Source: Candidatus Undinarchaeota archaeon (GTDB taxonomy: Archaea > SpSt-1190 > JASMDC01). From it: DNA of 17,489 bases. Below the pieces are notes generated by a model. It made no database searches. It saw only the letters and a program-made list of their open reading frames with translations, and had not been told where the DNA came from. Below, piece after piece: positions 1 through 17,489 of the stretch. Position 1 is the first letter of the stretch; each line of letters starts with the position of its first letter. A program made the translations under genes and the position numbers. The stretch is taken from the NCBI GenBank assembly GCA_964519305.1, contig CAZFHY010000032.1:1-17489 (forward strand). Direction: 5' to 3'.

Positions 1-593
1 GAGTCGTCCGATGTGGTGGGTTTCTGCTTGTCTATCTTGACGGGATTGCTAGTCCCGACCGTCTCGGTGTTGTCCATCGCGTCCTTGCTCGAGTACCGCA
101 CGTATCGCGTGCACACCTGCCCTTCGTCGCACGCGATTGCTATTGGCTGTGTGTAGGTGGTGTCGGGCGTGCACGTCCCCGCTGAGTCGGTGCAGTAGGT
201 TATCGCGCCGCACCCCGCCCCCGATCCGTCGTCGCAGGACAGTGTGATGGTCCGGTCACTCGCGTGCCAGCTCCCGTCGGAGTCGTCCGATGTGGTGGGC
301 TTCTGCTTGTCTATCTTGATGGCCACGCTCGTCTTCACGTTCTCCGTGTTGTCGAACACGTCCTTGCTGTAGAAGCGGACATAGTGCGTGCACACGCTCC
401 CCGTCTGGCAAGCGAGGGCCATCGGCCCCGTGTACACCGTCCCGGGCGCGCACGTCCCGTCGCCGTCGGTGCAGTAGTAGGTGGTGTCGCACCCGGCCCC
501 GGAGCCGTCGTCGCACGTCAGGGTGAACTGCTGGTCGCCGCCATACCATCCCTCCACCGTGATGCTGGGCGTCGTGGTGGGTAGATCATTGTC
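1..593 (-). repeat. Tandem 93-94 aa coding repeats (two complete plus start of a third), 6 Cys each
   Basis: Units start at Asp codons ending at 593, 311 and 32 (periods 282 and 279 bp) and share W..D...TL.CDDGSGAGC....YCTD..GTC.P.T.YT.P....C..G.VCT.YVR..SKD..DNTE. DNA 1-40 nearly equals 280-319. Confidence 0.9.
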
Positions 594-2957
594 CACCAGG
601 GAGCGTATCCCCTCGCTCACGGAGAGGTGGTCGTGCTTGGTCACCACCAGTGTCACGGTCCCCTCAGATGAGGATGTGAAGCCGTTGAACGAGGCCTTCC
701 CTTGGGCGTCGGTGGTCCGTACCACTTGGACGTCGCTGCTCTTAGAAAGGCAAACGCGCGCCCCCTCGACGGGCTGCTCGCCAGGTTTCGTTACCGTGAC
801 CTCGAAGGTGTGGGCATGCCCCGTCCGGAAGGCCGCAGGCTGGCCAGAGGCGGTGATGGTAACCGGCTCGCTGGTCCAGATGGGCGTCTCGGGATCGCCC
901 AGGAGGACGTAGCCGTAGTAGTTCCTCAGCCGGTGCTTGTCACTAGTGGAGCCGTAGAACGGATGATCTACCGAGTACTGCGTCTTCGAGCGATAGAGCG
1001 CCTCGCCGGGAGAGTAGTAGCCGGAGAATAGCGACTGCCAGAACAGCTTGTTCATCTTCTGGTTGTACGTGGTGCCGGAATAGGAGTAGTAGGACACGCG
1101 GCTGGCGCCTACGTACCCTATCGCCCCCGACGAGGCCTGGTTGACGAGCCACTCGCCCAGGGAGTCCGAGGAGCCGTCGAACAGCGCCGTCAGGCAGGCG
1201 CCCGCGTACACCATGGGGGGATTGTCCTGGTTCGTGAGCGTGTTTGAAGTGGACAGGAAGTTGGTCCACTGGATCTCGTTCGTGCACCCGCACGAGGAGC
1301 AGTCCCTGTCGCAGAACCCGTCAGAGTCATGGTCCTGGGTCCAAAGGAGCCTGCTGATACTCGTCTTGGACCCATGCGCCTCCATAGAGAGCACGCCGTA
1401 GCCCTGGTTGATCTGCGAGACGACGTTGGTGTTGGTGAGCGGCTCGGTGCATTCATAGGTGGACGGATCTATCCCCGATTTCTCGTACAGCGTCGTGAAG
1501 GAGTAGTCCTGGGGGAACACATCGTTCTTGAGCGTCTCCATGATCTTCGCATCGTCGCACCTGGTGCTGATCTCGACCTGATTGTCGCAGTCGTTGTCCT
1601 CGCGATAGTTGGAGATGGCGCCCAGGAGGAGGGCCCGTGACATCCACTCGCCAACCTCCGGATCCTTCTCGTACTTGACGATCTTGTTGGCCACCTGCGA
1701 GGCTGTGGTCCCGTCCGACACGGCGATCCTTCCGACGTACACCTCCGCCGTCAGGTCGATGCGCTGGACACCGCCCCCCCAGTGGTCGTCGACGAGCTCG
1801 CCGTAAAGGTGGTCGCCGTCGTAGTCCCAGTTGCTGCTCAGGTCAGCGTAGTAGAGGTCCGTGGGTGTGGAGTCGCCGTCGCAGAGGTAACCAGTGTGCG
1901 AGCCCGTGTTCCCCCCCACCTTGTCGTACGCGCATCGCGGGGGGACGTAGTTATAGTCCCCGAGGAGCAGGACCCACTTGGTGCCATAGTTGTTGTGGAG
2001 GTTGATGAGGCCGTTCCTGATCTTCTCGGCGAGGTCGTACCCGGCATAGTTGGAGTTGAAGTATGCCGTCGAGGCGAGACCTACGGTGTATCCCTTTTGG
2101 TACTTCCACGTCCCCAGCGTGTTCGCCGCCGTGTTGAAGGTGGGGCTATAGTACACGACGAGGTACTCGTACGTGGTGCCAGCAGCGGCCGGCGGGTCCT
2201 CCTCTCCTGAGGCGCCCTCGCCGCTCCCGGCCCCGCCCTCCTCCCCTCCACCAGATGGGCCGGGCGCGACGGACGCTGCGAAGCCGTCGTCCAGGGCATA
2301 GTCGTTCTCGACGATTGACCGAATAAAGTCGCGCTCCTCCTCCTGCCCTCCCGCGCCCCGCGGTCCTTCCCAGCCCAGATGGACACGCACCTTCACACGC
2401 GGGTGAAAGAGCAGCGTCCCGCTCGCCTGGTAGTAGGTGAGGGGGTACACCGCCGCCTGGAACACGTCGTACCCCATCATGTGCCTGGTCCCGTAGGACT
2501 TGAAGGGGCGAGGGGGGTAGGGCGCGGACGAGCCGTAGATTGACGCGTTGCGTTGAGGGGGCTTGTTATCGGTCGGGCTAACCGGGTAGGGAGTGGGGGG
2601 TACGTGGTGATTGGTACCTAGGTGAACCGTGGCCAGGTGCAAGACCTCCATGGACGTGACCATGTACCCCTCGGGGATATACAGGGTGACAATCCTCATG
2701 GGGAGCATGGGGTGCGTGGGCTCGGAGATGAACGTAGTGTTCTCGATAGTGATGGTCGTGATCCCGTCCTCATCGACGATCACCGGGTCCGAGAAGGCAA
2801 CCTCGATGTCGAAGTACGTCAGCTCCTGGGAGTACATCGCGCTCGAGGCGATGTTGGAGCTAACGTCGAGCTCGGTAGATAGCACGAGCGACGGGAGCAG
2901 AACCATCAGCAAGAGTCCTAATACTGGGACACCGATTCCTACCTTACAATTCTGCAT
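1..2957 (-). CDS. Secreted C25 (gingipain-family) cysteine peptidase with propeptide, Ig-like domain and C-terminal Cys-rich repeats; partial, continues past position 1
   Basis: Manual translation from ATG at 2957 (MQNCKVGIGVPVLGLLLMVLLPSLVLS, signal-peptide-like) stays open to the window edge. Propeptide-like EPTHPMLPMRIVTLYIPEG; C25 motifs KWVLLLGD, PTDLYYADL, EVYVGRI, KIVKYEK, MEAHGS (His 1374-1376), YAGACLT (Cys 1194-1196), GAIGYVGASR, YVLLGDP. Missing from the ORF track because there is no stop in the window. Confidence 0.9.
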   Translation of the reverse strand, partial: MQNCKVGIGVPVLGLLLMVLLPSLVLSTELDVSSNIASSAMYSQELTYFDIEVAFSDPVIVDEDGITTITIENTTFISEPTHPMLPMRIVTLYIPEGYMVTSMEVLHLATVHLGTNHHVPPTPYPVSPTDNKPPQRNASIYGSSAPYPPRPFKSYGTRHMMGYDVFQAAVYPLTYYQASGTLLFHPRVKVRVHLGWEGPRGAGGQEEERDFIRSIVENDYALDDGFAASVAPGPSGGGEEGGAGSGEGASGEEDPPAAAGTTYEYLVVYYSPTFNTAANTLGTWKYQKGYTVGLASTAYFNSNYAGYDLAEKIRNGLINLHNNYGTKWVLLLGDYNYVPPRCAYDKVGGNTGSHTGYLCDGDSTPTDLYYADLSSNWDYDGDHLYGELVDDHWGGGVQRIDLTAEVYVGRIAVSDGTTASQVANKIVKYEKDPEVGEWMSRALLLGAISNYREDNDCDNQVEISTRCDDAKIMETLKNDVFPQDYSFTTLYEKSGIDPSTYECTEPLTNTNVVSQINQGYGVLSMEAHGSKTSISRLLWTQDHDSDGFCDRDCSSCGCTNEIQWTNFLSTSNTLTNQDNPPMVYAGACLTALFDGSSDSLGEWLVNQASSGAIGYVGASRVSYYSYSGTTYNQKMNKLFWQSLFSGYYSPGEALYRSKTQYSVDHPFYGSTSDKHRLRNYYGYVLLGDPETPIWTSEPVTITASGQPAAFRTGHAHTFEVTVTKPGEQPVEGARVCLSKSSDVQVVRTTDAQGKASFNGFTSSSEGTVTLVVTKHDHLSVSEGIRSLVDNDLPTTTPSITVEGWYGGDQQFTLTCDDGSGAGCDTTYYCTDGDGTCAPGTVYTGPMALACQTGSVCTHYVRFYSKDVFDNTENVKTSVAIKIDKQKPTTSDDSDGSWHASDRTITLSCDDGSGAGCGAITYCTDSAGTCTPDTTYTQPIAIACDEGQVCTRYVRYSSKDAMDNTETVGTSNPVKIDKQKPTTSDD

Positions 2958-3057: not shown

Positions 3058-4833
3058 TCACTCGAGGTAGTAGTACTCGCCCTTCGCCTTCTGTTCCCGG
3101 TCCTTTAGGGAGGCCGTCTTGTTCGCGCGTGGCCGACGGGTCTCCGGATCGCGTCGGAAGGTGACGCCCACGTCCTTAAGGAAGAGGTTCATCCCGTCCC
3201 GCATCGCCATGGGGCCCACAGCCTTGCCCGAGACGCCCGGTCGGCCTATGAACACCATGAGCCGGTTGGAGAGGTAGTCGAGGAAGAGGATGTCGTGGTC
3301 GACCACCATGCACGACGCCTCCCGGCGCTCCATGGTGCGGCGGATGACCCGGGCCGCGTTGATGCGCTGCTCGACATCGAGGTATGCCGCGGGCTCGTCG
3401 AGCAGGTACAGGTCGGCATCGCGGGAGAGGCAGACGGCGATGGCGAGGCGCTGGAGCTCACCACCCGACAAGTGGACGATACGCTTGGTGAGCAGGCCCT
3501 CGAGGGCCAGGGGGCGGAGCACTTCGGTCTGGTAGAGCCCCGTACCGACGTCCGCGGAGACGGCCTTGAGCGTGGACTGGACCGTGGCGTTGCCCTTGGC
3601 CTCTAGGTACTGAGGCTTGTACGAGACCTTCACGGTCGTGTCGATGGAGCCCTCGTCAGGCTCCTCCACTCCGGCCAGCATCTTTACCATGGTGGTCTTT
3701 CCGATCCCGTTGGGTCCGACGATCCCCACGACCTCTCCACGGAATACGTTGCCCTTGGGGACGTCCAGGGAGAAGCTGGAGAACTTTCGTTTAAGTCCCT
3801 CGAAGGTCACGAGTTTCTCTGCGTCCCGCTCGGGTATCGGGGCCCGCACATCGAATTTGATGGGGCCGGTCCGGAACCGCACGTTCTCCTCCTTGAGGTA
3901 CCCGCCGAGATATGTGTTGATACCGGCCCGCGCACCGCGCAGGAGGGAGACCACGCCGAACGCCGCCGCCTTGCCGTACATCAGATGAGTGTAATCTGTT
4001 AGGTAGTCGAGGATGACCAGATCGTGCTCGACGACCATCACGGCCTTGTCCTGGGCCGCCAGTTCCCTGATGACCTTGGACACGTTGAGGCGCTGCTTGA
4101 TGTCGAGATAGGACGAGGGTTCGTCAAGGAAGAAGAATTCTGCGTCCCGGGCTAGACATCCTGCGATGGACACACGCTGCATCTCGCCGCCAGAGAGCTT
4201 CTCCACGGGATGGTCGATGAGGTCGGTGAGCTCGAAGGCCTTCACAAGCTCGTCCATACGACCGGCCTGGTCAATCTTCTCCAGAAGCTCACGTGCGCTC
4301 TTGCCTTTGTACAATTTGGGGATCGCGGTGATCTGCTGGGGTTTGAATGCGAGGTTGACCGTACCATTCCGCAGCTCTTGGAGGTAGTTGAGGATCTCGT
4401 TGCCGGCGAAGAAATCCGCGATACCGTCCCAGTCGGCGGGCTCACCAGTTCCAAGGTTAGGTGTCAGCTGGCCGCCGAGGATGGAGATGGCCGTGGACTT
4501 CCCGATACCGTTCGGCCCTAGAAGGCCCACAACGGAACCACGCTTGGGCACCGGAAGCCTGAACAGGCGGAAACCGTTGATACCGAAACGGTGGACCGGT
4601 TCGGTCTTCAGTTCCTCTGGGAGGTTGACGATGATGATCGAGTCGTGAGGGCACTTGTTCACGCAGATACCGCATCCCACGCACAGTTCCTCGTGGATGA
4701 CTGGCTTACCGTCCTCACCCACGGTGACAGTTTCGTCCCCGGTACGGACGCGTGGGCAGAAGCGTTGGCACGTGTACGGACAGTCACGCCCGCCCTGACA
4801 CTCGTCCTTCTTGACGATGGCGATGCGCGTCAT
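3058..4833 (-). CDS. rli: ABCE1/RLI ribosome recycling ATPase
   Basis: N-terminal two-[4Fe-4S] domain (C..C..C..C, then CVGCGICVNKCP), two ABC domains (GPNGIGKS / GPNGIGKT, LSGGEMQR / LSGGELQR, LDEPSSYLD / LDEPAAYLD), C-terminal TFRRD...RPRANK..S.KD.EQK..G.YYY. Confidence 0.98.
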   Translation of the reverse strand: MTRIAIVKKDECQGGRDCPYTCQRFCPRVRTGDETVTVGEDGKPVIHEELCVGCGICVNKCPHDSIIIVNLPEELKTEPVHRFGINGFRLFRLPVPKRGSVVGLLGPNGIGKSTAISILGGQLTPNLGTGEPADWDGIADFFAGNEILNYLQELRNGTVNLAFKPQQITAIPKLYKGKSARELLEKIDQAGRMDELVKAFELTDLIDHPVEKLSGGEMQRVSIAGCLARDAEFFFLDEPSSYLDIKQRLNVSKVIRELAAQDKAVMVVEHDLVILDYLTDYTHLMYGKAAAFGVVSLLRGARAGINTYLGGYLKEENVRFRTGPIKFDVRAPIPERDAEKLVTFEGLKRKFSSFSLDVPKGNVFRGEVVGIVGPNGIGKTTMVKMLAGVEEPDEGSIDTTVKVSYKPQYLEAKGNATVQSTLKAVSADVGTGLYQTEVLRPLALEGLLTKRIVHLSGGELQRLAIAVCLSRDADLYLLDEPAAYLDVEQRINAARVIRRTMERREASCMVVDHDILFLDYLSNRLMVFIGRPGVSGKAVGPMAMRDGMNLFLKDVGVTFRRDPETRRPRANKTASLKDREQKAKGEYYYLE

Positions 4834-5345
4834 TCGTCGTCCCGCTTCTTCTTGTCCTGGACACGGACCTCGAACTCACCACCGAAGAGATAGGCGAGCA
4901 TGGCCACGAACCGATCGAGGTCGACCTCGCCGGCCCGGTTCACCTCGACGAGGCGCTTGGAGCCCGTATCGGTGTAGACGTTGGAGATGGCTCGCAGGCG
5001 GCCCGGGTAGATTACCCTGTCCACGGTGCCCCTCACGTCGTCCCGCTGGCCTACGACGACGACCCGCTTGCCCAGCGTGTCGGTGAGACGCTTGACCCGA
5101 GTACCCTTCTTTCCGATGATGCGGCCCACGTCCTCCACACGAGTGATGATTACGAACCGGTCACCTAGGTCGAATCCCCGGGCGATCTCTGATTCCTGGA
5201 GAGCGCGGGACCGACGACCGATGCGGGCGATGGCGCGTGAGATTGTGATATCGGCCTGGTCGATCTCCCCTGCCTCCAGACGCGGCTCGTCAACAGCACA
5301 GAGGGCTGACGAATTTGCGCAGAATGCACAGATGGGAAGCTTCAT
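4830..5345 (-). CDS. Archaeal NusA-like KH-domain protein with N-terminal Cys cluster (171 aa)
   Basis: Start revised to MKLPICAFCANSSALCAVD (ATG 5345, TATA 23 nt upstream); KH GxxG loop in VGRIIGKKG; ATGA 4-nt overlap with the ABCE1 start. Confidence 0.85.
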   Translation of the reverse strand: MKLPICAFCANSSALCAVDEPRLEAGEIDQADITISRAIARIGRRSRALQESEIARGFDLGDRFVIITRVEDVGRIIGKKGTRVKRLTDTLGKRVVVVGQRDDVRGTVDRVIYPGRLRAISNVYTDTGSKRLVEVNRAGEVDLDRFVAMLAYLFGGEFEVRVQDKKKRDDE

Positions 5346-5368
5346 GCTCAACGAATCCTGCATAAGAG

Positions 5369-5374
5369 TTATAA
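5369..5374. promoter_or_regulatory. Palindromic TATA box TTATAA shared by divergent KH and nadM genes
   Basis: TTATAA lies exactly 23 nt from both ATG 5345 (-) and ATG 5398 (+). Confidence 0.75.
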
Positions 5375-5397
5375 GTGCATCTCGCCTTCTTCCCAGA

Positions 5398-5904
5398 ATG
5401 CGCGCACTCGTCATCGGGCGCTATCAACCGCCCCATAATGGCCATGTCAGGGTGCTCAGCGACATCGCCGCGAAGTTCGACGACGTGGTCGTCGGTATCG
5501 GCTCCGCCCAGGCGTCACATACGCAAAATAACCCCTTCACAGCAGGTGAGCGTGTTTGGATGCTCTCCAAGGTGATGAAGCAGTCTGGCAAGGGTGTGTT
5601 CTTCTTTGTGCCCATCATCGATGTCAATCGTAACGCCATCTGGGTGCGTCACGTGGAGTCCATGTGCCCGCCTATCGATGTAGTGTTCTCCAACAATCCC
5701 TTGGTCCGGCGTCTGTTCTCCGAGGCCGGATTCGACGTGCGCCACTCACCGTTGTACGAGAGGGAGACGCTCTCGGGCACGGAGATCCGACGACGCATCG
5801 TGGCCGGCGAGGACTGGGAGTCGCTCGTCCCGCCCGAGGTCGCCGACCTCATCAAGCGCGTCGACGGGGTCGAGCGCATCCGGACCCTTGAGGAGAAGGA
5901 TTAG
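5398..5904 (+). CDS. nadM: Nicotinamide-nucleotide (NMN) adenylyltransferase (168 aa)
   Basis: MRALVIGRYQPPHNGH (HxGH motif), GIGSAQ.SHT.NNPFTAGER, SNNPLV, SGTEIRRRI, W..LVP. Start at ATG 5398 rather than 5026. Confidence 0.96.
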   Translation: MRALVIGRYQPPHNGHVRVLSDIAAKFDDVVVGIGSAQASHTQNNPFTAGERVWMLSKVMKQSGKGVFFFVPIIDVNRNAIWVRHVESMCPPIDVVFSNNPLVRRLFSEAGFDVRHSPLYERETLSGTEIRRRIVAGEDWESLVPPEVADLIKRVDGVERIRTLEEKD

Positions 5905-7756: not shown

Positions 7757-8539
7757 CTAGCGCCGCCTCCTCTCCGCCTGTATCTGGTACTGGTCGAAGA
7801 TCTCATTGAAGAGGTTGTTGGTGTTCATACCGATCCGCCGGTCCACTTCGCTCACGACACCGGGATCGACACGCTTTTTCCCATAGCCATCGCCGACCTC
7901 GATACCCGCGCGGACGGCCTGCTTCACGGTCCCGAGTGCCTTGCCCTTGTTCGATCGGATGGACTTGTAGGCGTCGTCAAAGCCCTTTTTCAGGTATGGC
8001 TTGAGCGCCTCGGCATTGCTGTGGTATCCAGTGAGGTTATCGAGGAAGTCCCTGGCAACGTACCGGGTATCCACCATGTCCGTCATGAGAACTGACTCCA
8101 TGTCGATCCGTGTAGCCTTCTTACCGTCGTAGAACACGTTCTTTGCGTGACCGTCCCCTACGCCGAACACGAAGTCGTAGGCGCATACCTTACCGATCTC
8201 GTAGGCAAACCGCTTCGGGTTCTTGTCGATCGCGTTACGGGACTTGATTACCATGTCCCCTGACGCTGATTCCATAACGCCGAATCCTTTGTACTGCTTG
8301 ATGCGATAGGTAGGGAGACCGGCGTATCCCGCGAGCTTGGAGCCCACGATCTCCCCGCGCACGTCCCCCTCTTTCGCGTAGTACGAACCGGAGGACGAAA
8401 AAAGAAGCCCCTTCTCCTCAACATCGATGCGGTAGGCCGAATTGATGTTGCCCTCATCAATGCGGTAGGTCCCAGTGACGTTAGTTTTCTCACCGGAGAA
8501 ATCACGTACCGCATACTCAAGGGTAGAACGGGCCAGCAT
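7757..8539 (-). CDS. Atypical kinase-like protein (HipA / PI3-PI4-kinase / LanM-kinase-type fold), 260 aa
   Basis: EGNINSAYRI (Gly-loop-like), YYAKE (Lys), GEIVGSKLA..AGLP (helix C Glu), YDFVFGVGDGHAKNV (DxHxxN), RIDME (metal-binding Asp). Start revised to ATG 8539, 25 nt from TTTAAATA. Confidence 0.72.
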   Translation of the reverse strand: MLARSTLEYAVRDFSGEKTNVTGTYRIDEGNINSAYRIDVEEKGLLFSSSGSYYAKEGDVRGEIVGSKLAGYAGLPTYRIKQYKGFGVMESASGDMVIKSRNAIDKNPKRFAYEIGKVCAYDFVFGVGDGHAKNVFYDGKKATRIDMESVLMTDMVDTRYVARDFLDNLTGYHSNAEALKPYLKKGFDDAYKSIRSNKGKALGTVKQAVRAGIEVGDGYGKKRVDPGVVSEVDRRIGMNTNNLFNEIFDQYQIQAERRRR

Positions 8540-8564
8540 GCTACTACTATATAGTGGTAACAAC

Positions 8565-10784: not shown

Positions 10785-10813
10785 GTTTTCCTATGATAAC
10801 TATACCGAACGCT

Positions 10814-11923
10814 ATGACTCGGCTCCTCCTTCTCTCGAACGTACACGGGGATGGTCTCTTCCTTTCTCACGTCCTTGAGGAGGGCAGGAAGACCGGGGTG
10901 GACGGTCTTCTTGTCAGCGGTGATCTGGGTGGTGACCGGGCTTGGCCGGTCCATCCTGAAGCTGACGATCTCGATCGTGCCTTCCTTGAGAGACGGGGCG
11001 TCATGCCATATCCGGTGGACGCTACCACCTTCGATGCTTTTGCTCGCCATTTCAACGATCTTCTTGATATGAAGGCCACGGCGGAGGATATGGCCTCTCT
11101 TGACCACTTGTTCAAGGAGGGTGCTGCCAAGCTAGAAGGGTCCGATTTCGGTAAGAGGTCGCTCACAACGGTGCTGGGGATGATCGAGACGTTCTGTACC
11201 GATAACGACCTCCCCTGCCTGATGGTACCGGGCTCCGGGGATATCGATAGCGCCTCTGACCTGATAGAAGCGACCGGGGCGCGAACGCCCCTTTTCAAGC
11301 TCATCCACGGGGACTGTGCCGACATCGGCGACCTTGCCATCGTTGGCCTAGGCCGGGTCGTGACAACTGACAGTTCCGGGACGATGGAGACACTTTTCAC
11401 CAAGAGTCCCGCATCGTTCTTCGCCGGACATGCCCGCTCACGACCGGAGGTCCACAGGTCCGTGGGGCATAACGAGCTCCCGGAAAAGGACGCTGGCAGG
11501 CTTCTGGGCCGGGGCTACAAGAAAGCAAGAGGACGCCCGGTAGTGCTCCTCAGCCACACGCCACCATTCGCATCGGGAGCGGACCTCGTTGTCTCAAAAG
11601 AGGGGCAGGTGCATCCCACCGGATCGTCCGCTGTGCGTACGTACGCTACGCATGCCGAGACGATCTTCGTCAATACTGGCCACATCCGGGCCTGTACAGG
11701 GCTCACACGCATCGGTGAGACGCTGATCGTCAATACGGGACAGCTCGCCGGACTTGAGCGACCCCTGTACAACGTACGCAACGTTGTGGACGAGGTCGCC
11801 ACGTCGTACGTGCCCGTGGCCATCTGGGAGCCGTTGGGCGGGATGGCCGCCATCGCAGAGGTGGAGGGACGGGATGTCCGTGCCTCACCCATCATCGTGA
11901 CCGAACATGTCGAGGACGCATAG
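10814..11923 (+). CDS. Calcineurin-like (Icc-related) metallophosphoesterase-fold protein, degenerate active site (369 aa)
   Basis: LLLSNVHGD, LVSGDLG, VPGSGD, LLSHTPP, NTGHIR, IVNTG. Start revised to ATG 10814 on TATA spacing. Confidence 0.85.
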   Translation: MTRLLLLSNVHGDGLFLSHVLEEGRKTGVDGLLVSGDLGGDRAWPVHPEADDLDRAFLERRGVMPYPVDATTFDAFARHFNDLLDMKATAEDMASLDHLFKEGAAKLEGSDFGKRSLTTVLGMIETFCTDNDLPCLMVPGSGDIDSASDLIEATGARTPLFKLIHGDCADIGDLAIVGLGRVVTTDSSGTMETLFTKSPASFFAGHARSRPEVHRSVGHNELPEKDAGRLLGRGYKKARGRPVVLLSHTPPFASGADLVVSKEGQVHPTGSSAVRTYATHAETIFVNTGHIRACTGLTRIGETLIVNTGQLAGLERPLYNVRNVVDEVATSYVPVAIWEPLGGMAAIAEVEGRDVRASPIIVTEHVEDA

Positions 11924-13013
11924 GTTCCGGGCGGTACTAGTCGCCGACATCCATGGGGATGTAGAGAACACGCGCCGAGCCGTGCGGTTCCATCTCTCAC
12001 GTAAAGCGGACGCATTCTTGGTTGCCGGTGACGTGGGCTCTCGTGCAGTCTGGCCCATTTCCCCTGATGCCACGGTGAAGGAGAGTGACACGCTCAGGGA
12101 GCGGGGCTACTTCCCCTTCAAGGTAACGCAGGACGAGCACCGGCGGTTCGAGGAGTACGTGAAGGATGTGAAGGAGGAACGCCCCGTGGACAAGGAGCGT
12201 GTGACGTGGGTCGAAAAGCTCATCGAGCGCGGCCGAGAGGACCCGGATTTCAAGGGCTTCACGCGTAAGAGCCTCAGGGACGTTATGGATGTCCTCAAGA
12301 CCATCAAGAAGCAGCCTGTGGCCATAGTGTTGGGCGAGCAGGATTACTTCAACGCCGAGCGTGTGGTGGAGGAGGTGGCAGAGGACCACCCGAACATCGT
12401 CCATGCCCACGGGCGGGCGGTCCCCCTCGGCGACGATCTGGCCGTCGTAGGCCTCGGACGTGTCGTTGAGCTGATGCCCACTGGGCTTCCCACATCGCTC
12501 ATCCCCTGGGAATCGTACTATCTCAACACCTTCCATACACAGGTCCTGACCCAGAACGCACCCCGCCTGGAATATTCTGAAGAGGAGTACGGCCGCCTTC
12601 TCCTTCGTGCATATCGAAAAGCAGAAGGGAAACGGATCATCCTGCTCTCGCATGTCCCTCCATACCGCTCGGGCGCCGATATTGGTATCTTCGGTGATCC
12701 TGAGGACGAAGAGAAGTTCAAGGTGTTCTTCGTCGGATCTAGGATGGTGGCCAAGTTCGCCCACCGTCCTGCGACGGCCGTCGTGGGTTGCGGTCATGTA
12801 CACTCGTGCGTTGGGATGACCTACCTCGAGGGTACTCCTGTGGTCAATCCTGGGCAACTGCGGATGATGGAGAATCCCATCATGAACCTGCGGACCTACC
12901 GGGATCCTTTCGCACGCGAGTACGTCGCCGGGCCTCGCTGGGACGCTATAGGTTGTGGTGGGGCCTTGCTCGAGATCGGACCGGAGATCGATGCGAACAG
13001 GTTCGAGGTCTAG
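11907..13013 (+). CDS. Calcineurin-like (Icc-related) metallophosphoesterase-fold protein, paralog of the preceding gene
   Basis: VLVADIHGD, LVAGDVG, VLGEQD, LLSHVPPY, VGS, CGHVH, VVNPG; 17-bp overlap with the upstream paralog. Confidence 0.9.
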   Translation: MSRTHRFRAVLVADIHGDVENTRRAVRFHLSRKADAFLVAGDVGSRAVWPISPDATVKESDTLRERGYFPFKVTQDEHRRFEEYVKDVKEERPVDKERVTWVEKLIERGREDPDFKGFTRKSLRDVMDVLKTIKKQPVAIVLGEQDYFNAERVVEEVAEDHPNIVHAHGRAVPLGDDLAVVGLGRVVELMPTGLPTSLIPWESYYLNTFHTQVLTQNAPRLEYSEEEYGRLLLRAYRKAEGKRIILLSHVPPYRSGADIGIFGDPEDEEKFKVFFVGSRMVAKFAHRPATAVVGCGHVHSCVGMTYLEGTPVVNPGQLRMMENPIMNLRTYRDPFAREYVAGPRWDAIGCGGALLEIGPEIDANRFEV

Positions 13014-13024
13014 ATCCTGTAGAT

Positions 13025-14554
13025 TTACTCATTGATCTCTACCGGGCCGCCTATGGCAGCAGTCACTTCCCTGGCATCGAGGAGGTCCGAGCGCAAGGTG
13101 AGTGCTCGCATCGCCATGGCTGTGAATGGGACAACGGCTGCCCCGTTCCTGTCCTCCCACATACCGTCCTCGCCCCGTAGATCAAGGAGCAATGGGTACC
13201 CCACGAGCTGGAGCTCCTCCAACGCCTCGATGAGCTTGGGATCGTTGTCCACGTCCGTCCCTGGTGGCGGATCCGTCATGGCGCCACTGACTGCGGCCAG
13301 AACGAGCGCGAGACCGGGGTGTGGGACCATTACTTTCCCGTAACCGAAACCGAACCGCTCGGCAGAGGCCTCGTCATCGCTCATGCTCTCGAGCTCATCG
13401 GTCCCGATGGTCGCTAGCTCATGGAGCGCCTTAGTGACCGTGCGCTCACATTCGAACACACGTCCCTCGTCACCGTCCCGGTGGAACGCGGGGACAGAGG
13501 CCGAGAGCGCGATGGTGGCGAGGGCCATGAGGTACGGCGCTCGAGCGTTCACGAGCGTCTCTTTCCGCTCGATAGTGTCTATGTAGTGGAATGTCTTCCC
13601 CTTCACATCAAGGACTAGCAGGTCGGCCAAGCGCCGGAGGAGCTGGTTCGCCATCTCGACCGTCTCCTTCTCCTCACCCAGGTGGGCAAGTGTTGCGGTA
13701 TATGCTGATAGTGCGAGCACGCACTCGCATCGCGAGAACGTGCGCAACCGCTGCTGGATTTGATCTTCGAGGTGTGCGTTCAGAGCAGTGAACGATTCCG
13801 CTGCCATTTTGGTAATGGCTTGCGCTTCTTCCTCTACATGGGACCGTTCCTCAACTGTCAAGCGACGTTCGACCTTGAGGGTATGGTTGAGATAATGGAC
13901 CGCCTCGGCGCATACTCGTAGGAACCGCGCCTCCGATTCGGGGCGCATGATATCGCTGAATCCCTCCAGACCGAGGTCGGGATCTGCCAGAGAATCTGCT
14001 GATCGTAGCTTGTCCAGTAGCGGTCGCATATCCTCGTACCTGATGTGGAACGACTTACTGTAATGGTACAGGTCCAGTTCTAGGAGGGTCAAGAGCCCGT
14101 CACAGAACGAGAGGAGCCCCTCTGCTTCAAGCGTGGCGGTCTGCAAGGCCCTGAGGGACGTTGCGGCACGTGACGGATCGGCAGGGCGGTCTTCGGGCCG
14201 CAGGGTGGCAGCGAAGTCAGGTTCGATGCTCAAGTGGTCGTTCCCCCTGATCCTTAGGACCTCCCCTATCTCCTGATCGCGCTCCTTCCGCTTTCCTGAG
14301 GCATCGATGATCTCGATCACGTGCTGGGACAACCGCCGGAGCACATGTGTCTCCAGGTCCTTAGGCGAGCGCACCCAAAGGGGGTGGAGCTCGCGCTTCA
14401 AGGCGCTATACAGATCATCAACAGTGATCTCGGGATGCTCATAGACGTGTTTGATCACGAGAAGACGGGCTTCGTTCCTGTTCTCCACGTTGTTCACGAA
14501 AATGGACCCTGTGGTGCGTAACTGGTGTAATGTCCGGGGATCGAGCCGCGCCAT
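13025..14554 (-). CDS. Hypothetical protein, possible N-terminal winged helix and C-terminal alpha/alpha-barrel
   Basis: 509-aa ORF with TATA TTAAATA (14578-14584) 23 nt upstream. RLLVIKHVYEHPEITVDDLYSAL is wHTH-like; LLDLRGEDGMW...FTAMAMRAL resembles a prenyltransferase/squalene-cyclase QW-type repeat. The domain calls are tentative. Confidence 0.8.
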   Translation of the reverse strand: MARLDPRTLHQLRTTGSIFVNNVENRNEARLLVIKHVYEHPEITVDDLYSALKRELHPLWVRSPKDLETHVLRRLSQHVIEIIDASGKRKERDQEIGEVLRIRGNDHLSIEPDFAATLRPEDRPADPSRAATSLRALQTATLEAEGLLSFCDGLLTLLELDLYHYSKSFHIRYEDMRPLLDKLRSADSLADPDLGLEGFSDIMRPESEARFLRVCAEAVHYLNHTLKVERRLTVEERSHVEEEAQAITKMAAESFTALNAHLEDQIQQRLRTFSRCECVLALSAYTATLAHLGEEKETVEMANQLLRRLADLLVLDVKGKTFHYIDTIERKETLVNARAPYLMALATIALSASVPAFHRDGDEGRVFECERTVTKALHELATIGTDELESMSDDEASAERFGFGYGKVMVPHPGLALVLAAVSGAMTDPPPGTDVDNDPKLIEALEELQLVGYPLLLDLRGEDGMWEDRNGAAVVPFTAMAMRALTLRSDLLDAREVTAAIGGPVEINE

Positions 14555-14598
14555 GTGTATACCAATGGCGTAAGAGATATTTAAGTATTCGTCTACAC

Positions 14599-14617
14599 TT
14601 TACACTGAAAGTGTAAA
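14599..14617. promoter_or_regulatory. Perfect inverted repeat TTTACACT-N3-AGTGTAAA, candidate operator
   Basis: 8-bp arms between divergent TATA boxes at 14578-14584 (-) and 14630-14635 (+). Confidence 0.6.
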
Positions 14618-14674
14618 AGTTGGGTGGTACTTATACCATCGGCACGACTAGTTACTACAGAGGGGTGACCTACA

Positions 14675-16660
14675 ACGGCCATAGATATCGCAGCACTTCT
14701 ACTCTTTGGAGCGAAGTATATCGGTGTAGCGGGATTGTTCGTCGTCGTGATGATAATTCTCTACGAGACCTGGAGGGAGTTAAAGCTCCTAAAGGCCGCC
14801 GAGAAACAGTTCGTGGACCTGTTCAAGGACCGCAAGCCCGTGTCCGTGGACGACCTCATGAACTACCTTGGTCTGACCTCATTCTCTTGGTTCATTATTC
14901 TTGAGATCGCCATGCGGACCGATGTGGACCTGTTCAAGGCCATCGAGTATGCATACCAACAGATCAATGCCTGCCACGAGCAGCTATTCTCTGAGGGTAC
15001 GTACTGGGGTGGCTTCATCCTGGACGAGGCGTTCTACGCAACGCCCATGTCACGTACGGCCGGAGAGCTCCTCTCGCGCCAGGATTACCAGCGCCGCAGC
15101 GCCCAGCAGCTCCTTTCTACCATCCAATCCGTCCAGACCGCTGTGTACAACCTCCGGGCCGACCAGCAGAAGATAGATGAGAGGCTGGGGGTGTTCGAGG
15201 ACAATCTCCGCGGCTTCAACGAGGTCTCTGACCGGCGAAAGATCAATATCAGCAACGTGGAGGAGTGGCCCGACGAAGTGGCAGCGGCCTGCCTCACGGG
15301 CTCCAAAGAGGAATTCGTGAGGGGTATCTTCATCGACGAGTACGGTGGTAACGCCAGCATCTCGGCCCTAGCGACAGGACGTGCGACGGGCGGGAAACCA
15401 GTGGAGACCTTCCGGGGGGTGATGATGTGGTTCTACCGGGTCCAGGACTATAAGAGCGTGGACGAACTGGTGAAGAACAAGAAGATCAATCCCGCGGTGG
15501 CAGCTGTTCTCAAACGGAAGCTCCAAGAGTACCTCCATTGGAAGATCAACTACTATCAGATGCTCCACCGCCTCAAGACGGAGATCCACAAGAACATGTC
15601 GCTCCAGCTGGCCAACCTCCGATCATACAAGATGTGGGCAGCGCGGCACATAGCGGCCGCGGAGAAGATCCGCATCGATACGTTCAACGAGTTCCAGCGG
15701 ACCAGTGAGCGGGGCCAGATGGAAGGTGTGGTGAGAGAGCAGATCGAGTGGGTGCCGCGTGTTAGGTACACTGCGTACTTCCTCTTTACACAACCCATGT
15801 GGCACTTCTGGAAACCGATGTGGAAGGTACTCGTCGAGCGTGCCATGGTCGTGTACTCCGAGCCCGGGACACCCTTCCTCTGGGGCAGGGTAAGAACATG
15901 GAGCTACATAGGTATTGTAGAGGTAGAGCGCCTTGCGAACGTGGTCCAATGGGCGTCGTTCAACGTCTGGTGGCGTGGGGATCCCACCGTGTTCTCACAG
16001 CGGATCCCTGCAAAGCGGGCACGGTCCCACGCGTTCCTCATGTACTGGCTCAACAAGGCATCGGGCTTCTCGCCATGGGAGACCATCGATTACGGTGACA
16101 AGCTCTTCAATAAGAAGAACAAGCCCAAATGGCTCAAGGAGCTCGAGGATGACGAGGGTGACCTCGAGGCCGAGGAGTACGGTGAGAAGGAAGACCACGG
16201 GCACTCTCATGAGGGCGGGCTCCTCGACACGGTGTTCGCCAAATGGCTTCCAGGGATCGTGAACTTCATCACGTTCGGGTGGCTGGACGAGCTCTTCCGC
16301 TTCGATCCATCGCATGTCAACGATGGGTTAGTTACCAGGCAGGTGGAACGGGTCGAGCACATCTTCGAGCCCCTCCGCCGAGGTATCGCTGAGTCGTGGT
16401 ACTCGGTCATAGATATCCTGGCTACCTTCGGTCTCTATCCAAAGGGTCTTGGTCTCTCCTACGGTGGTGACGCTCCTCCCATCGACCGGTACGGAAGGTT
16501 CCGCGGTATGTTCGGCGGGCTCTTCTCCAGTCGGCGCAGGAGGGCTATGTACGCGCTGCTCTTCGAGATGCAGCCCATCTTCACTGCTGCCATGCAGGAA
16601 GCATGGAGAGGGGCTTTCAAGTTCGATCTGAACCCGCCACAGATGCAAGGGAGGCACTGA
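14675..16660 (+). CDS. Hypothetical membrane-anchored, largely helical protein (661 aa if the ACG start is used; 641 aa from TTG 14735)
   Basis: Long ORF with GC3-rich codons; frame open back to 14669; SD GAGGGGTGA then ACG GCC ATA; N-terminal hydrophobic segment, coiled-coil-like middle, Trp-rich C-terminal half. Confidence 0.85.
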   Translation, partial: TAIDIAALLLFGAKYIGVAGLFVVVMIILYETWRELKLLKAAEKQFVDLFKDRKPVSVDDLMNYLGLTSFSWFIILEIAMRTDVDLFKAIEYAYQQINACHEQLFSEGTYWGGFILDEAFYATPMSRTAGELLSRQDYQRRSAQQLLSTIQSVQTAVYNLRADQQKIDERLGVFEDNLRGFNEVSDRRKINISNVEEWPDEVAAACLTGSKEEFVRGIFIDEYGGNASISALATGRATGGKPVETFRGVMMWFYRVQDYKSVDELVKNKKINPAVAAVLKRKLQEYLHWKINYYQMLHRLKTEIHKNMSLQLANLRSYKMWAARHIAAAEKIRIDTFNEFQRTSERGQMEGVVREQIEWVPRVRYTAYFLFTQPMWHFWKPMWKVLVERAMVVYSEPGTPFLWGRVRTWSYIGIVEVERLANVVQWASFNVWWRGDPTVFSQRIPAKRARSHAFLMYWLNKASGFSPWETIDYGDKLFNKKNKPKWLKELEDDEGDLEAEEYGEKEDHGHSHEGGLLDTVFAKWLPGIVNFITFGWLDELFRFDPSHVNDGLVTRQVERVEHIFEPLRRGIAESWYSVIDILATFGLYPKGLGLSYGGDAPPIDRYGRFRGMFGGLFSSRRRRAMYALLFEMQPIFTAAMQEAWRGAFKFDLNPPQMQGRH

Positions 16661-16661
16661 G

Positions 16662-17333
16662 ATGGCAATTAACCTGCCAGTGGGTATGCCGGACGTGATG
16701 GTCCCCCGCAACGCCACATTAATGGGGCTGCTGCAAGAGGAGGACTCCGAGTTCCACGGTACCGGTATCTATAGTGCGCGCCAGAACCCGGCATGGGTGG
16801 ACGCCTTCGGTACCAGTGGCCGTACAGGCCGCTGGTCCAAGGTGGCGGTCAAGAACTTCGAGCTCACCTACGTGGGAAAGCTCTTCCCGGAGGTGGAGGA
16901 CACCTTCATCCAACTAATGAAGGAACGCGGATTCCGCATCATGGAGAACTTCTTCTTCCTCGCCACGCGACGGGTGCGCGACATTATCCTTCACGGCGGC
17001 ATAATGCTGCGTGAGGAGGACTATATGTTCTCCCAGATCCGCATCCCGTACCTCACTCTGTGGATCCCGGACCGGCCTTTCCCTCCTGGAGTGGGTTGGC
17101 TTGAGGGCGAGCCCCCGACGGGTCCCTATGCCATCTGGACAACGTGGTACGTGGACATGGATTTCGAGCTAATCTGGCAGCGCAATCCCGCGCTCAAGCA
17201 CCTGCTGCCATACTACATGAAGTACGTGAAACGCAGGCGTCTTGAGGAGCTCGTGAAGAAGTGTCAGCAGGAGCTCAGAGAAGTCGACAAGGAGTGGCGC
17301 AGACGCACTGCCCGGCTCATGCGGATGAAGTAG
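16662..17333 (+). CDS. Hypothetical protein (223 aa), operonic with the upstream gene
   Basis: ATG 1 nt after the upstream stop, preceded by SD GGAGG; alpha/beta core and long charged C-terminal helix. Confidence 0.85.
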   Translation: MAINLPVGMPDVMVPRNATLMGLLQEEDSEFHGTGIYSARQNPAWVDAFGTSGRTGRWSKVAVKNFELTYVGKLFPEVEDTFIQLMKERGFRIMENFFFLATRRVRDIILHGGIMLREEDYMFSQIRIPYLTLWIPDRPFPPGVGWLEGEPPTGPYAIWTTWYVDMDFELIWQRNPALKHLLPYYMKYVKRRRLEELVKKCQQELREVDKEWRRRTARLMRMK

Positions 17334-17412: not shown

Positions 17413-17489
17413 GCGCCGGTAGTCTAGCTGGCCTAGGACATCTGCCTGCCACGCAGATAACTCGGGTTCAAATCCCGACCGGCGCACCA
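17413..17489 (+). tRNA. tRNA-Gly (GCC), intronless, CCA encoded
   Basis: Acceptor GCGCCGG/CCGGCGC, anticodon arm TCTGC-CTGCCAC-GCAGA (GCC at 17448-17450), T arm TCGGG-TTCAAAT-CCCGA, discriminator A then CCA. Confidence 0.97.

What the first reader, a model, noticed from the sequence alone, without database searches (positions are those of the whole stretch)
14675..17333. Two-gene operon resembling uncharacterised families conserved in DPANN archaea: best candidate for an undescribed system
Seen: a membrane-anchored helical protein (FYATPMS...AQQLLSTIQSVQTAVYNL...INPAVAAVLKRKLQEYLHWK...QLANLRSYKMWA) coupled by a 1-nt gap to a 223-aa protein (ELTYVG...LMKERGF...DFELIWQRNPALKHLLPYYMKYVKRRRLE). 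From memory, not a search, both patterns recall function-unknown proteins recurrent in Woesearchaeota, Pacearchaeota and related genomes. Inference: a lineage-specific membrane-associated complex (envelope remodelling, division or host contact), here with a TM extension, regulated promoter and unusual start.
Basis: inference. Interest (0 to 1): 0.7.

Follow-up and report, generated by a model that had tools for sequence, protein, structure and literature searches.

The report
Conserved DPANN gene pair, function unknown
These two coupled genes are real and belong to two undescribed protein families that occur together in nearly every tiny "DPANN" archaeon searched, and in no other archaeon searched, usually beside a DNA-repair-like metal enzyme, so they probably form part of an unstudied housekeeping machine.

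Summary
Both ORFs exist as described: A at 14735-16660 (641 aa from TTG) and B at 16662-17333 (223 aa), 1 nt apart. Neither matches Pfam, NCBIfam or any solved structure by sequence.

A has full-length relatives in 16 of 16 other genomes of its class, whose record titles name Undinarchaeota. A profile search also found a long tail of 430-570-aa "hypothetical proteins" labelled Nanoarchaeota, Woesearchaeota, Aenigmarchaeota, Nanohaloarchaeota or DPANN. B is a diverged member of a 165-190-aa family.

Across 301 archaeal genomes, A was found in 69 and B in 72. Both were found in 68, and all of these are small genomes except this genus.

In 16 of 20 relatives' loci fetched, A lies beside a 510-890-aa Endonuclease-IV-like TIM-barrel protein. 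Pol-beta-type nucleotidyltransferases often follow it. B-like genes lie beside A in 7 of the 20.

The "envelope, division or host-contact complex" reading is not supported. Only this lineage has an N-terminal membrane anchor on A, and that anchor needs a non-canonical start codon.

My best guess, at low confidence, is a housekeeping complex that processes phosphodiester bonds, probably in nucleic acids. The scan had already noted the A-like/EndoIV-like pair on other DNA (e1-1092385, e1-1398776).

The parts
14576..14589 (+). A/T-rich TATA-like element (GATATTTAAGTATT) in the 125-nt intergenic region shared with the divergent gene 13025-14554
   Evidence: Read directly from the sequence. Nearly conserved in G001. 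Function not tested.
14594..14617 (.). Perfect 8-bp inverted repeats (TACACTTT/AAAGTGTA and TTTACACT/AGTGTAAA), a possible operator just downstream of the TATA-like box
   Evidence: the repeat finder I2 and I3. Arms conserved in G001, with one change in the loop. The operator role is inference.
14660..14668 (+). Shine-Dalgarno-like GAGGGGTGA, whose last three bases are the in-frame TGA that closes the upstream frame
   Evidence: Sequence. It lies 6-18 nt before the candidate non-canonical starts ACG 14675, ATA 14681 and ATC 14687, and 66 nt before the TTG at 14735.
14669..14734 (+). In-frame extension of gene A that encodes the first half of a transmembrane helix and has no canonical start codon
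   Evidence: Hydropathy maximum 2.24 over 19 residues. 3 of 4 substitutions against G001 are synonymous. BLASTP alignment to P0002 begins 7 residues before the TTG. RNA-library contigs of a ~90% identical relative begin at 14669 and 14684, which is a weak hint only.
14735..16660 (+). Gene A: 641 aa, mostly helical, with a long antiparallel helical hairpin (about residues 104-168 and 253-311). It belongs to a DPANN-wide family of 430-660-aa proteins.
   Evidence: ORF; class-wide alignment A4; exhaustive profile search; 69 of 301 genomes; tree; AlphaFold model confident only for residues 110-310.
16649..16654 (+). Shine-Dalgarno-like GGGAGG for gene B, inside the 3' end of gene A
   Evidence: Sequence.
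16662..17333 (+). Gene B: 223 aa. It has a disordered N-terminal extension of about 55 aa that is specific to this lineage, then a beta-alpha-beta4-long-alpha core. It is a diverged member of a DPANN-wide family of 165-190-aa proteins.
   Evidence: ORF; hhalign between its own clade and the 14 class members gives probability 91%, E 9.4e-7 over 149 columns; alignment A5; model with core pLDDT about 85; 72 of 301 genomes.

Best explanation
Genes A and B are this lineage's copies of two old, vertically inherited, single-copy protein families. The families co-occur and are confined, as far as searched, to DPANN-type archaea.

In most other DPANN lineages the A gene is followed directly by gene C, often with overlapping stop and start codons. 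C is a 510-890-aa Endonuclease-IV-like (xylose-isomerase-fold) metallo-TIM barrel with an insertion of roughly 250-300 aa. One or two Pol-beta-type nucleotidyltransferase genes follow C in at least 7 loci. Two or three tandem B paralogues often sit divergently upstream of A.

My reading is that A is the helical, coiled-coil scaffold of a cytoplasmic housekeeping complex built around the C phosphodiesterase, and B is a small beta-alpha-beta4-alpha subunit of it. Its most likely job is to process or repair phosphodiester ends of nucleic acids.

In the window's lineage, a 3.6-Mb member of the Undinarchaeota class, the set is rearranged. C is on another contig, A and B have become translationally coupled, A has gained an N-terminal membrane anchor, and B has gained a 55-aa N-terminal extension.

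Shown: family membership, distribution, co-occurrence, gene order and folds. Inferred: physical complex, substrate and membrane location.
For: Homology and distribution:
- A alone finds 16 of 16 other class genomes and 0 of 24 other archaeal families.
- The exhaustive profile search gives 160 proteins at E<=1e-3, of which 13 are at E<=1e-30.
- A profile of the distant members (A6) hits 69 of 301 archaeal genomes. All are 0.5-1.6 Mb except G000 and G001, and it hits the window itself at E 3.9e-22.
- B joins the small-protein family at hhalign probability 91%.
- The widened B profile hits 72 of 301 genomes. 18 of the 55 non-class hits contributed rows to that profile, so 37 are independent detections.
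- Overlap from my tally: 68 with both, 1 with A only (G020, 77% complete), 4 with B only.

Vertical descent:
- In the A tree the window plus P0002 is sister to the 10 small-genome class members, and the 12 form one side of a branch (SH-aLRT 100).

Gene order:
- C-like genes lie in 16 of 20 fetched loci. 10 are directly downstream of A, 5 are downstream after a K/E-rich coiled-coil ORF, and 1 is in a divergent operon with B and B'.
- B-like genes lie beside A in 7 of those 20 loci, and also in G003 and G011.
- C matches PF01261 in 6 of 7 proteins tested and MJ1311 (3wqo) at E 1.2e-16.
- Its invariant or near-invariant H, H, E, D-x-x-H, H, H, E columns resemble the EndoIV metal ligands as I recall them.
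- Nucleotidyltransferase domains were found in 9 of 9 downstream neighbours tested, one with an N-terminal HhH domain.

This genome:
- G000 keeps a C-like 714-aa gene on contig C16 (E 1.8e-35).

Expression hint:
- Contigs of two RNA libraries from one study, from a ~90% identical relative, cover 24 and 26 of 30 bins across A and B, and none of the bins before 14606.
Against: No direct evidence shows that A, B and C bind each other.

In this class the genes are mostly unlinked. A and B are adjacent only in G000, G001, G003 and G011, and C is elsewhere.

The substrate is a guess:
- C's nearest solved relative, MJ1311, is itself uncharacterised.
- No C protein reaches the cut-off of any NCBIfam model, and the nucleotidyltransferases match only generic minimal-NTase models below cut-off.
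- B's structural neighbours are mostly lipid- or ligand-binding helix-grip proteins and KA1 domains at middling Z of 6-8.4, which fits a lipid role as well as a nucleic-acid one.

The A model is confident only for a generic helical hairpin.

Five small, 95-99% complete archaeal genomes gave no A match, so the family is not universal among small archaea.

Related genomes are not independent samples, so the co-occurrence table overstates its support.
Confidence: 0.45

Rival explanations
1. Lipid or membrane module. B is a helix-grip (START/Ups1-like) or KA1-like lipid binder. C is a trinuclear-metal phosphodiesterase that acts on phospholipid head groups. A is a membrane-proximal scaffold. Together they would take up or remodel host-derived lipids, which DPANN archaea cannot make.
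For: By my reading of the entry titles, about half of B's top 50 structural neighbours are START, Bet v 1, AHSA1, Ups1 or Aster-type lipid or ligand carriers. Examples are 4xhr (Z 8.0) and 6cay (Z 7.2). Several others are KA1 domains. A carries a membrane anchor in this lineage. That DPANN depend on their hosts for lipids is established knowledge, recalled here.
Against: The Z values of 6-8.4 lie in the range the tool calls common for unrelated folds. Foldseek gave no match at E<=0.001. B has 5 strands and one short helix before the C-terminal helix, and no cavity was tested. An N-terminal anchor is absent from A outside this clade, and no B (0 of 53) or C (0 of 25) has a hydrophobic window. 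The neighbouring nucleotidyltransferases, one with HhH, and the EndoIV-like ligand pattern fit nucleic acids better.
Confidence: 0.2
2. Structural or cytoskeletal assembly. A polymerises through its long helical hairpin, as ESCRT-III or PspA do, and works in division or membrane shaping, with B as an adaptor.
For: The only confident part of the A model is a long hairpin whose top structural match is the CHMP4B hairpin (Z 11.2, rmsd 1.0, 79 residues). Snf7 and an Asgard ESCRT-IIIB also appear at Z 10.2. A is hard to model as a monomer, with mean pLDDT 53.6.
Against: Those matches sit within 1-2 Z units of dozens of unrelated hairpins such as seryl-tRNA synthetase, SMC and designed proteins. The tool itself warns that Z under about 13 is uninformative for helical proteins. 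The two helices are separated by about 85 residues rather than a tight turn. No Pfam family, Snf7 and PspA included, matched more than 2 of 67 A-family members. The conserved partner is an enzyme.
Confidence: 0.1
3. A and B work independently. Their co-occurrence would reflect only shared descent in DPANN, and the 1-nt coupling here would be a local accident.
For: In most class members the two genes lie on different contigs or 12-15 kb apart. Related genomes inflate any co-occurrence count.
Against: Adjacency recurs in different orientations in separate lineages. It is co-directional here, convergent in G003 and G011, and divergent in 7 of 20 other loci from several families. Only 5 of 73 genomes carrying either gene lack the other.
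Confidence: 0.15
4. Mobile, viral or defence cargo.
For: In G001 a transposase-like ORF lies convergent to B. The window's contig ends in a tRNA gene right after B.
Against: In the class, A is single copy in most genomes searched and B in all 17. Both are present in every class member, and the A tree follows the taxonomy. Neighbours in other lineages are housekeeping genes for ribosomal proteins, ABCE1 and RNase P proteins (my reading of the ORFs). PADLOC and PHROGs were not searched.
Confidence: 0.03

Closest known systems
The 'orphan ~480-505-aa protein + Endonuclease-IV-like TIM barrel with ~250-300-aa insertion' pair of Woesearchaeota-type genomes, noted earlier in this scan (e1-1092385, e1-1398776). 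I found no description of it in papers.
   Same: The window's A is a full-length, distant homologue of that orphan partner. The A4 profile finds those proteins, and the A6 profile built from them finds the window at E 3.9e-22. Gene order A then C was confirmed here in 15 of 20 loci.
   Different: Here C is unlinked, on contig C16. A is about 130 aa longer, has an N-terminal anchor and is coupled to B. The B family and its co-occurrence with A do not appear in the summaries of those notes that I was shown.
MJ1311 of Methanocaldococcus jannaschii (PDB 3wqo) and Endonuclease IV/AP_endonuc_2 (PF01261), for the partner protein C
   Same: C matches 3wqo at E 1.2e-16 and PF01261 in 6 of 7 proteins tested. 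It keeps His/Glu/Asp columns like the EndoIV trinuclear site, as I recall that site.
   Different: C carries a large insertion in the barrel and is two to three times longer. It never reaches the nfo model cut-off. In the class, only one separate gene, in G003, does so. MJ1311 has no known function. C is not in the window.
Helix-grip/TBP-like beta-alpha-beta4-alpha domains: START/Bet v 1/AHSA1, the Ups1-Mdm35 lipid carrier (4xhr), and KA1 domains (5wi2)
   Same: B's core has the order strand, helix, four antiparallel strands, long C-terminal helix. Its best structural neighbours are of these kinds, at Z 6-8.4.
   Different: There is no sequence similarity to them. Z is in the range of chance arrangements. 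Foldseek gave nothing at E<=0.001. No ligand cavity or membrane-binding patch was examined.
Mre11-Rad50 and SbcCD, offered as a working analogy only: a metallo-phosphoesterase paired with a long coiled-coil protein
   Same: A long antiparallel coiled-coil protein is encoded directly beside a metal-dependent phosphodiesterase, often with overlapping stop and start codons.
   Different: I saw no P-loop motif in A's conserved columns (read by eye). C has a TIM-barrel fold, not the calcineurin fold. No homology is claimed.

Membership tests
DPANN-wide 'A' family (unnamed; 430-660-aa helical proteins) | Full-length profile similarity, including the conserved blocks F.[AY]SE.S..[FH]G, [VF]D..GG, N..[VA]...LKRK...[YF]..W and Y..W | tested here: met
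   Alignment A4 has 36 invariant columns across 17 class sequences. The A6 profile of 106 distant members hits the window at E 3.9e-22. W269 is invariant in 100 sequences.
DPANN-wide 'A' family | Single copy, with a gene tree that follows the taxonomy | tested here: met
   One match in G000 and one in G001. The 12 class rows form one side of a branch with SH-aLRT 100.
DPANN-wide 'A' family | EndoIV-like TIM-barrel gene directly downstream | tested here: not met
   In the window B follows A, and the contig ends 156 nt after B. In G001 nothing C-like follows. G000's C-like gene is on contig C16. The same unlinked state holds for the 12 class genomes in which C was found.
DPANN-wide 'B' family (unnamed; 165-190-aa beta-alpha-beta4-alpha proteins) | Profile similarity over the whole core | tested here: met
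   hhalign probability 91.3%, E 9.4e-7, 149 columns. G72, E95, E118, Y121, P141, G154, D167, W172 and L178 are invariant in 19 sequences. The single-sequence search was only marginal, at E 5.1e-4.
START/Bet v 1-like (SRPBCC) superfamily, for B | Helix-grip fold with a ligand cavity, and sequence or profile match to a member family | tested here: inconclusive
   Structural neighbours at Z 6-8. No Pfam or NCBIfam match. Foldseek found nothing at E<=0.001. The cavity was not examined.
ESCRT-III/Snf7/PspA superfamily, for A | A tight alpha1-alpha2 hairpin followed by alpha3-alpha5 in a protein of about 200-250 aa, with a Pfam Snf7 or PspA match | tested here: inconclusive
   The hairpin superposes on CHMP4B at Z 11.2 but does not stand above unrelated hairpins. 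About 85 residues lie between the two helices. No such Pfam match among 67 members.
Endonuclease IV (nfo, TIGR00587), for the partner C of this genome | Score above the curated cut-off of 129.65 bits | tested here: not met
   Only one gene, in G003, passes the cut-off. C-like genes score about 20 bits over model positions 59-115.

The most novel reading that the evidence does not exclude
A, B and the EndoIV-like protein C, with their nucleotidyltransferase neighbours, would be the core of a previously unrecognised housekeeping machine. It was inherited from the common ancestor of Undinarchaeota, Nanoarchaeota/Woesearchaeota, Aenigmarchaeota and Nanohaloarchaeota.

That would make it a set of protein families specific to DPANN and spread across it, which a 2021 protein-family survey reported not finding. 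A 3.6-Mb relative with a complete-looking genome keeps the set. This would mean it predates, or is independent of, extreme genome reduction, and it could serve as a molecular marker for DPANN common ancestry.
Probability: 0.35. Interest if true: 0.8.

Novelty: categorically new. Interest (0 to 1): 0.66.

Why it matters
DPANN archaea make up a large share of archaeal diversity, yet most of their conserved genes have no known role. Whether they share an ancestor is still debated. Castelle et al. [quoted passage not shown]

Here two families, too diverged for ordinary clustering to link, connect at least four named DPANN groups. They co-occur in 68 of the 73 genomes that carry either one. They are also tied by gene order to a metal phosphodiesterase and to nucleotidyltransferases.

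This gives a concrete, testable module of three or four proteins. At least one organism that carries it bears the name of a described nanohaloarchaeon, so pull-downs and enzyme assays are feasible. The variant in a 3.6-Mb genome offers a contrast between a large-genome and a reduced-genome setting.

They may already list these families under lineage-level clusters.

Tried and rejected
- Pfam and NCBIfam on A, B and relatives: nothing for A or B. Scanning 67 A-family members one by one, no Pfam family matched more than 2.
- PDB sequence searches with the B profile and the A6 profile: only chance-level rows, E 0.2 and above.
- Word-index homologue search: only 2 clusters for A, 4 for B, and 13 for the B profile. 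These families are rare in that index.
- Complex prediction on A plus B with alignments of 100 and 53 rows: 'no answer', score 0.00 in both runs, controls not run. This counts neither for nor against binding.
- ESM Atlas: best scores were 0.84 (LXG-type helical proteins, for a Woesearchaeota-type A) and 0.83 (unnamed archaeal clusters, for B). Both are at the level that shuffled proteins reach.
- VIA-align on the A model: only generic helical hairpins.
- Foldseek on B: top rows are Cyt-type toxins and START proteins at E 4e-3 and worse. I did not pursue these.
- The C profile A7 on G000 found nothing at E<=1e-3. The class-specific profile A8 then found the gene.
- nfo model across the class, to ask whether C is the only AP endonuclease: unclear, because other small TIM-barrel genes give sub-threshold hits.
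- CCA-adding-enzyme idea for the neighbouring nucleotidyltransferases: rejected. TIGR03671 scored 17.9 bits against a cut-off of 281.
- Five small genomes without A, re-searched with the broadest profile: still nothing. Absence is not proven.
- Sigma-70 promoter and terminator scan: at chance level and not suited to archaea.
I draw no habitat claim from them. The stretches that RNA contigs do not cover are no evidence of silence.
- Literature searches: 'DPANN / endonuclease IV / conserved hypothetical', 'MJ1311', and 'DPANN / signature proteins / arCOG / uncharacterized / Undinarchaeota'. None turned up a description of these families.
- PADLOC, PHROGs and viral contig collections were not searched.
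Full report
**1. The observation**

The window (17,489 nt, GC about 0.54-0.63) is contig C32 of genome G000. That genome is 3.63 Mb in 42 contigs, 99.83% complete and 4.29% contaminated. It is archaeal, since an ABCE1 gene lies at 3058-4833.

ORF A is 14735-16660 (+, 641 aa, TTG start). ORF B is 16662-17333 (+, 223 aa, ATG start). They are 1 nt apart. A GGGAGG precedes the ATG of B by 7 nt.

The contig ends 156 nt after B, inside a tRNA-Gly(GCC) gene. In the sister genome G001 the operon is also just A and B, followed by a convergent transposase-like ORF.

**2. The start of A**

No ATG, GTG or TTG lies between the TGA at 14666-14668 and the TTG at 14735. This in-frame stretch nevertheless encodes the first half of a hydrophobic helix. 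The Kyte-Doolittle mean over 19 residues reaches 2.24.

Several observations suggest the stretch is translated:
- It is conserved in G001, with 3 of 4 substitutions synonymous.
- It aligns with the N-terminus of the 67%-identical orthologue P0002, which starts with ATG. That alignment begins 7 residues before the TTG.
- A Shine-Dalgarno-like GAGGGGTGA ends at 14668. Candidate near-cognate starts are ACG 14675, ATA 14681 (ATT in G001) and ATC 14687.

The anchor is therefore likely, but the start codon is unproven.

Upstream lie a TATA-like box at 14576-14589 and 8-bp perfect inverted repeats at 14594-14617. Their function is untested.

**3. Family A**

Neither protein hits Pfam or NCBIfam.

Within the class:
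- A alone finds full-length relatives of 504-592 aa in 16 of 16 other genomes of its class, and none in 24 genomes of other archaeal families.
- A pattern scan of 185,579 species genomes returned 16 loci. Six of the 16 record titles say Undinarchaeota or Undinarchaeales. The rest carry generic or older labels.
- The 17-sequence alignment is collinear from end to end and has 36 invariant columns.

Beyond the class:
- An exhaustive HMMER search with the alignment found 160 proteins at E<=1e-3. Of these, 40 are at E<=1e-10 and 13 at E<=1e-30.
- The tail consists of 430-570-aa proteins without Pfam domains.
- Of 30 proteins looked up, 6 carry a source name, and every name is 'hypothetical protein'. 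The organisms named are Nanoarchaeota, Woesearchaeota, Aenigmarchaeota, 'DPANN group', Ca. Nanohalovita haloferacivicina, and one class member labelled Altiarchaeota.
- A profile of 106 distant members matched 69 of 301 sampled archaeal genomes, the window itself at E 3.9e-22. All matched genomes are 0.5-1.6 Mb except G000 and G001.
- Five small, 95-99% complete genomes remained negative with the broadest profile.

A quick maximum-likelihood tree (67 rows, LG+G4) places the window and P0002 on a long stem as sister to the 10 small-genome class members. The 12 form one side of a branch with SH-aLRT 100. This fits vertical descent with fast evolution in this lineage.

**4. Family B**

B alone finds only its own genus, plus one marginal hit at E 5.1e-4.

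That hit belongs to a 165-190-aa family that is single copy in 15 of 15 small-genome class members. Profile-profile comparison of B's own clade (5 sequences) with 14 of those members gives probability 91.3%, E 9.4e-7, over 149 columns. The joint alignment has 10 invariant columns.

B thus consists of the family core plus an N-terminal extension of about 55 aa that is predicted to be disordered.

A widened profile of 53 rows matched 72 of 301 genomes. Of the 55 non-class positives, 18 had contributed rows to the profile. The copy number is usually 2 tandem copies outside the class, 3-4 in Woesearchaeota-type genomes, and 1 in the class.

My tally across:

| Presence | Genomes |
|---|---|
| Both A and B | 68 |
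| A only (G020, 77% complete) | 1 |
| B only (G108, G129, G161, G206) | 4 |
| Neither | 228 |

**5. Gene neighbourhoods**

I fetched 20 loci around distant A homologues and mapped their ORFs against my profiles.

The gene for C, a 510-890-aa protein, lies as follows:

| Position of the C gene | Loci |
|---|---|
| Directly downstream of A, same strand, often overlapping stop and start | 10 |
| Downstream of A after a 160-205-aa K/E-rich coiled-coil ORF | 5 |
| In a divergent operon with two B paralogues | 1 |
| Not in the locus | 4 |

Properties of C:
- It matches PF01261 (xylose-isomerase-like TIM barrel, AP_endonuc_2) in 6 of 7 proteins tested.
- It matches the uncharacterised MJ1311 structure 3wqo at E 1.2e-16.
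- Its invariant or near-invariant His, Glu and Asp columns resemble, from my recall, the Endonuclease IV metal ligands. They flank an insertion of roughly 250-300 aa.

Other neighbours:
- B-like genes lie beside A in 7 of the 20 loci, mostly as a divergent tandem pair. They are convergent to A in G003 and G011.
- All 9 downstream neighbours tested carry Pol-beta-type nucleotidyltransferase domains, and one has an N-terminal HhH domain. They match only generic models and are not CCA-adding enzymes.

In the class, C-like genes of 612-695 aa were found in 12 of 15 small genomes, unlinked to A. G000 has one on contig C16 (714 aa, E 1.8e-35).

Two earlier notes of this scan (e1-1092385, e1-1398776) had described the A-like/EndoIV-like pair in Woesearchaeota-type genomes with unknown function. 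I confirmed that gene order independently.

**6. Folds**

The A model has mean pLDDT 53.6. It is confident only for residues 110-310, which form two long helices (104-168 and 253-311) with a small domain between them. Its structural matches are generic hairpins.

The B model has mean pLDDT 71.5, with the core at about 85. Its order is strand, helix, four strands, long C-terminal helix. Foldseek gave nothing at E<=0.001. VIA-align gave Z 6-8.4, mostly to helix-grip lipid or ligand carriers and to KA1 domains. These are leads only.

Hydropathy analysis shows an N-terminal anchor only in this genus-level clade (G001, P0002 and the window's extended frame). Four other A proteins have internal windows of 1.63-1.84. 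No B (0 of 53) and no C (0 of 25) has such a window.

**7. Expression hint**

Contigs from two metatranscriptome libraries of one study belong to a relative about 90% identical to the window. They cover 24 and 26 of 30 bins across A and B, and none of the bins before 14606. Their ends fall at 14669 and 14684. A DNA contig from the same sample spans the whole stretch. Contigs cannot show expression level or true transcript ends, and DNA carry-over is possible.

**8. Interpretation**

What is firm: A and B are real, conserved and vertically inherited. They co-occur and are repeatedly adjacent. They belong to a DPANN-wide gene set that also includes an EndoIV-like metallo-TIM barrel.

What is inferred: the proteins form a complex, and the complex processes phosphodiester bonds, probably in nucleic acids. 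The inference rests on C's ligand pattern and on the nucleotidyltransferase and HhH neighbours.

The lipid alternative rests on B's weak fold neighbours and on this lineage's anchor.

I found no paper describing these families. Castelle et al. 2021 report finding no DPANN-specific family set (passages read).

Noticed in passing
whole genome G000 (window = G000:C32): The genome is 3.63 Mb, 99.83% complete and 4.29% contaminated. Its sister G001 is 3.8 Mb. The 15 other species genomes of the same class are 0.6-1.2 Mb, and published Undinarchaeota MAGs average 0.66 Mbp (PMC7414124, passage read). The A tree supports class-level kinship of this contig. A large-genome sister of a DPANN class would be notable. 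A chimeric bin was not excluded.
   Followed up: partly
window 17413-17489: tRNA-Gly(GCC) with an encoded CCA lies at the very end of the contig. DNA contigs from other runs also end or branch there, so the assembly break is probably caused by a repeat.
   Followed up: partly
window 3-2957 (-): An ORF of 985 aa, open at the contig end, with a peptidase C25 (gingipain-like) domain (PF01364, E 1.7e-55) and Ig-like or carboxypeptidase-regulatory-like domains.
   Followed up: no
window 10793-11923 and 11907-13013 (+): Two overlapping paralogous calcineurin-like metallophosphoesterase genes lie just upstream of the 509-aa unknown gene 13025-14554 (-), which is divergent from A. The same order occurs in G001.
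   Followed up: no
L153:10620-11306 (-) = G000:C16: A 228-aa protein with a type VI secretion Hcp domain (PF05638, E 5.2e-28) sits in this archaeal genome, about 2 kb from the C-like gene. A 714-aa coiled-coil protein follows C.
   Followed up: no
L124, L125, L128, and window 3058-5414: ABCE1 and a Zn-ribbon/KH-domain gene lie within a few kb of the A/B cluster in 3 of 20 DPANN loci, and about 10 kb from A in the window. In the loci these ORFs were identified by my reading of their N-termini. This may be a remnant of ancestral gene order.
   Followed up: no
L012-L015, L018, L020, L022, L023 (class family f2): In these 8 loci of the small-genome family f2, A is flanked on one side by a divergent cluster of small ORFs with hydrophobic, pilin-like N-termini (my reading), and in most of them by large secreted-looking proteins. 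On the other side lies a DUF373 membrane protein (PF04123, E 9e-67 in one tested).
   Followed up: no
window 7757-8563 (-): A 268-aa ORF with weak sub-threshold matches to DUF4135 and to the PI3/PI4-kinase catalytic region.
   Followed up: no
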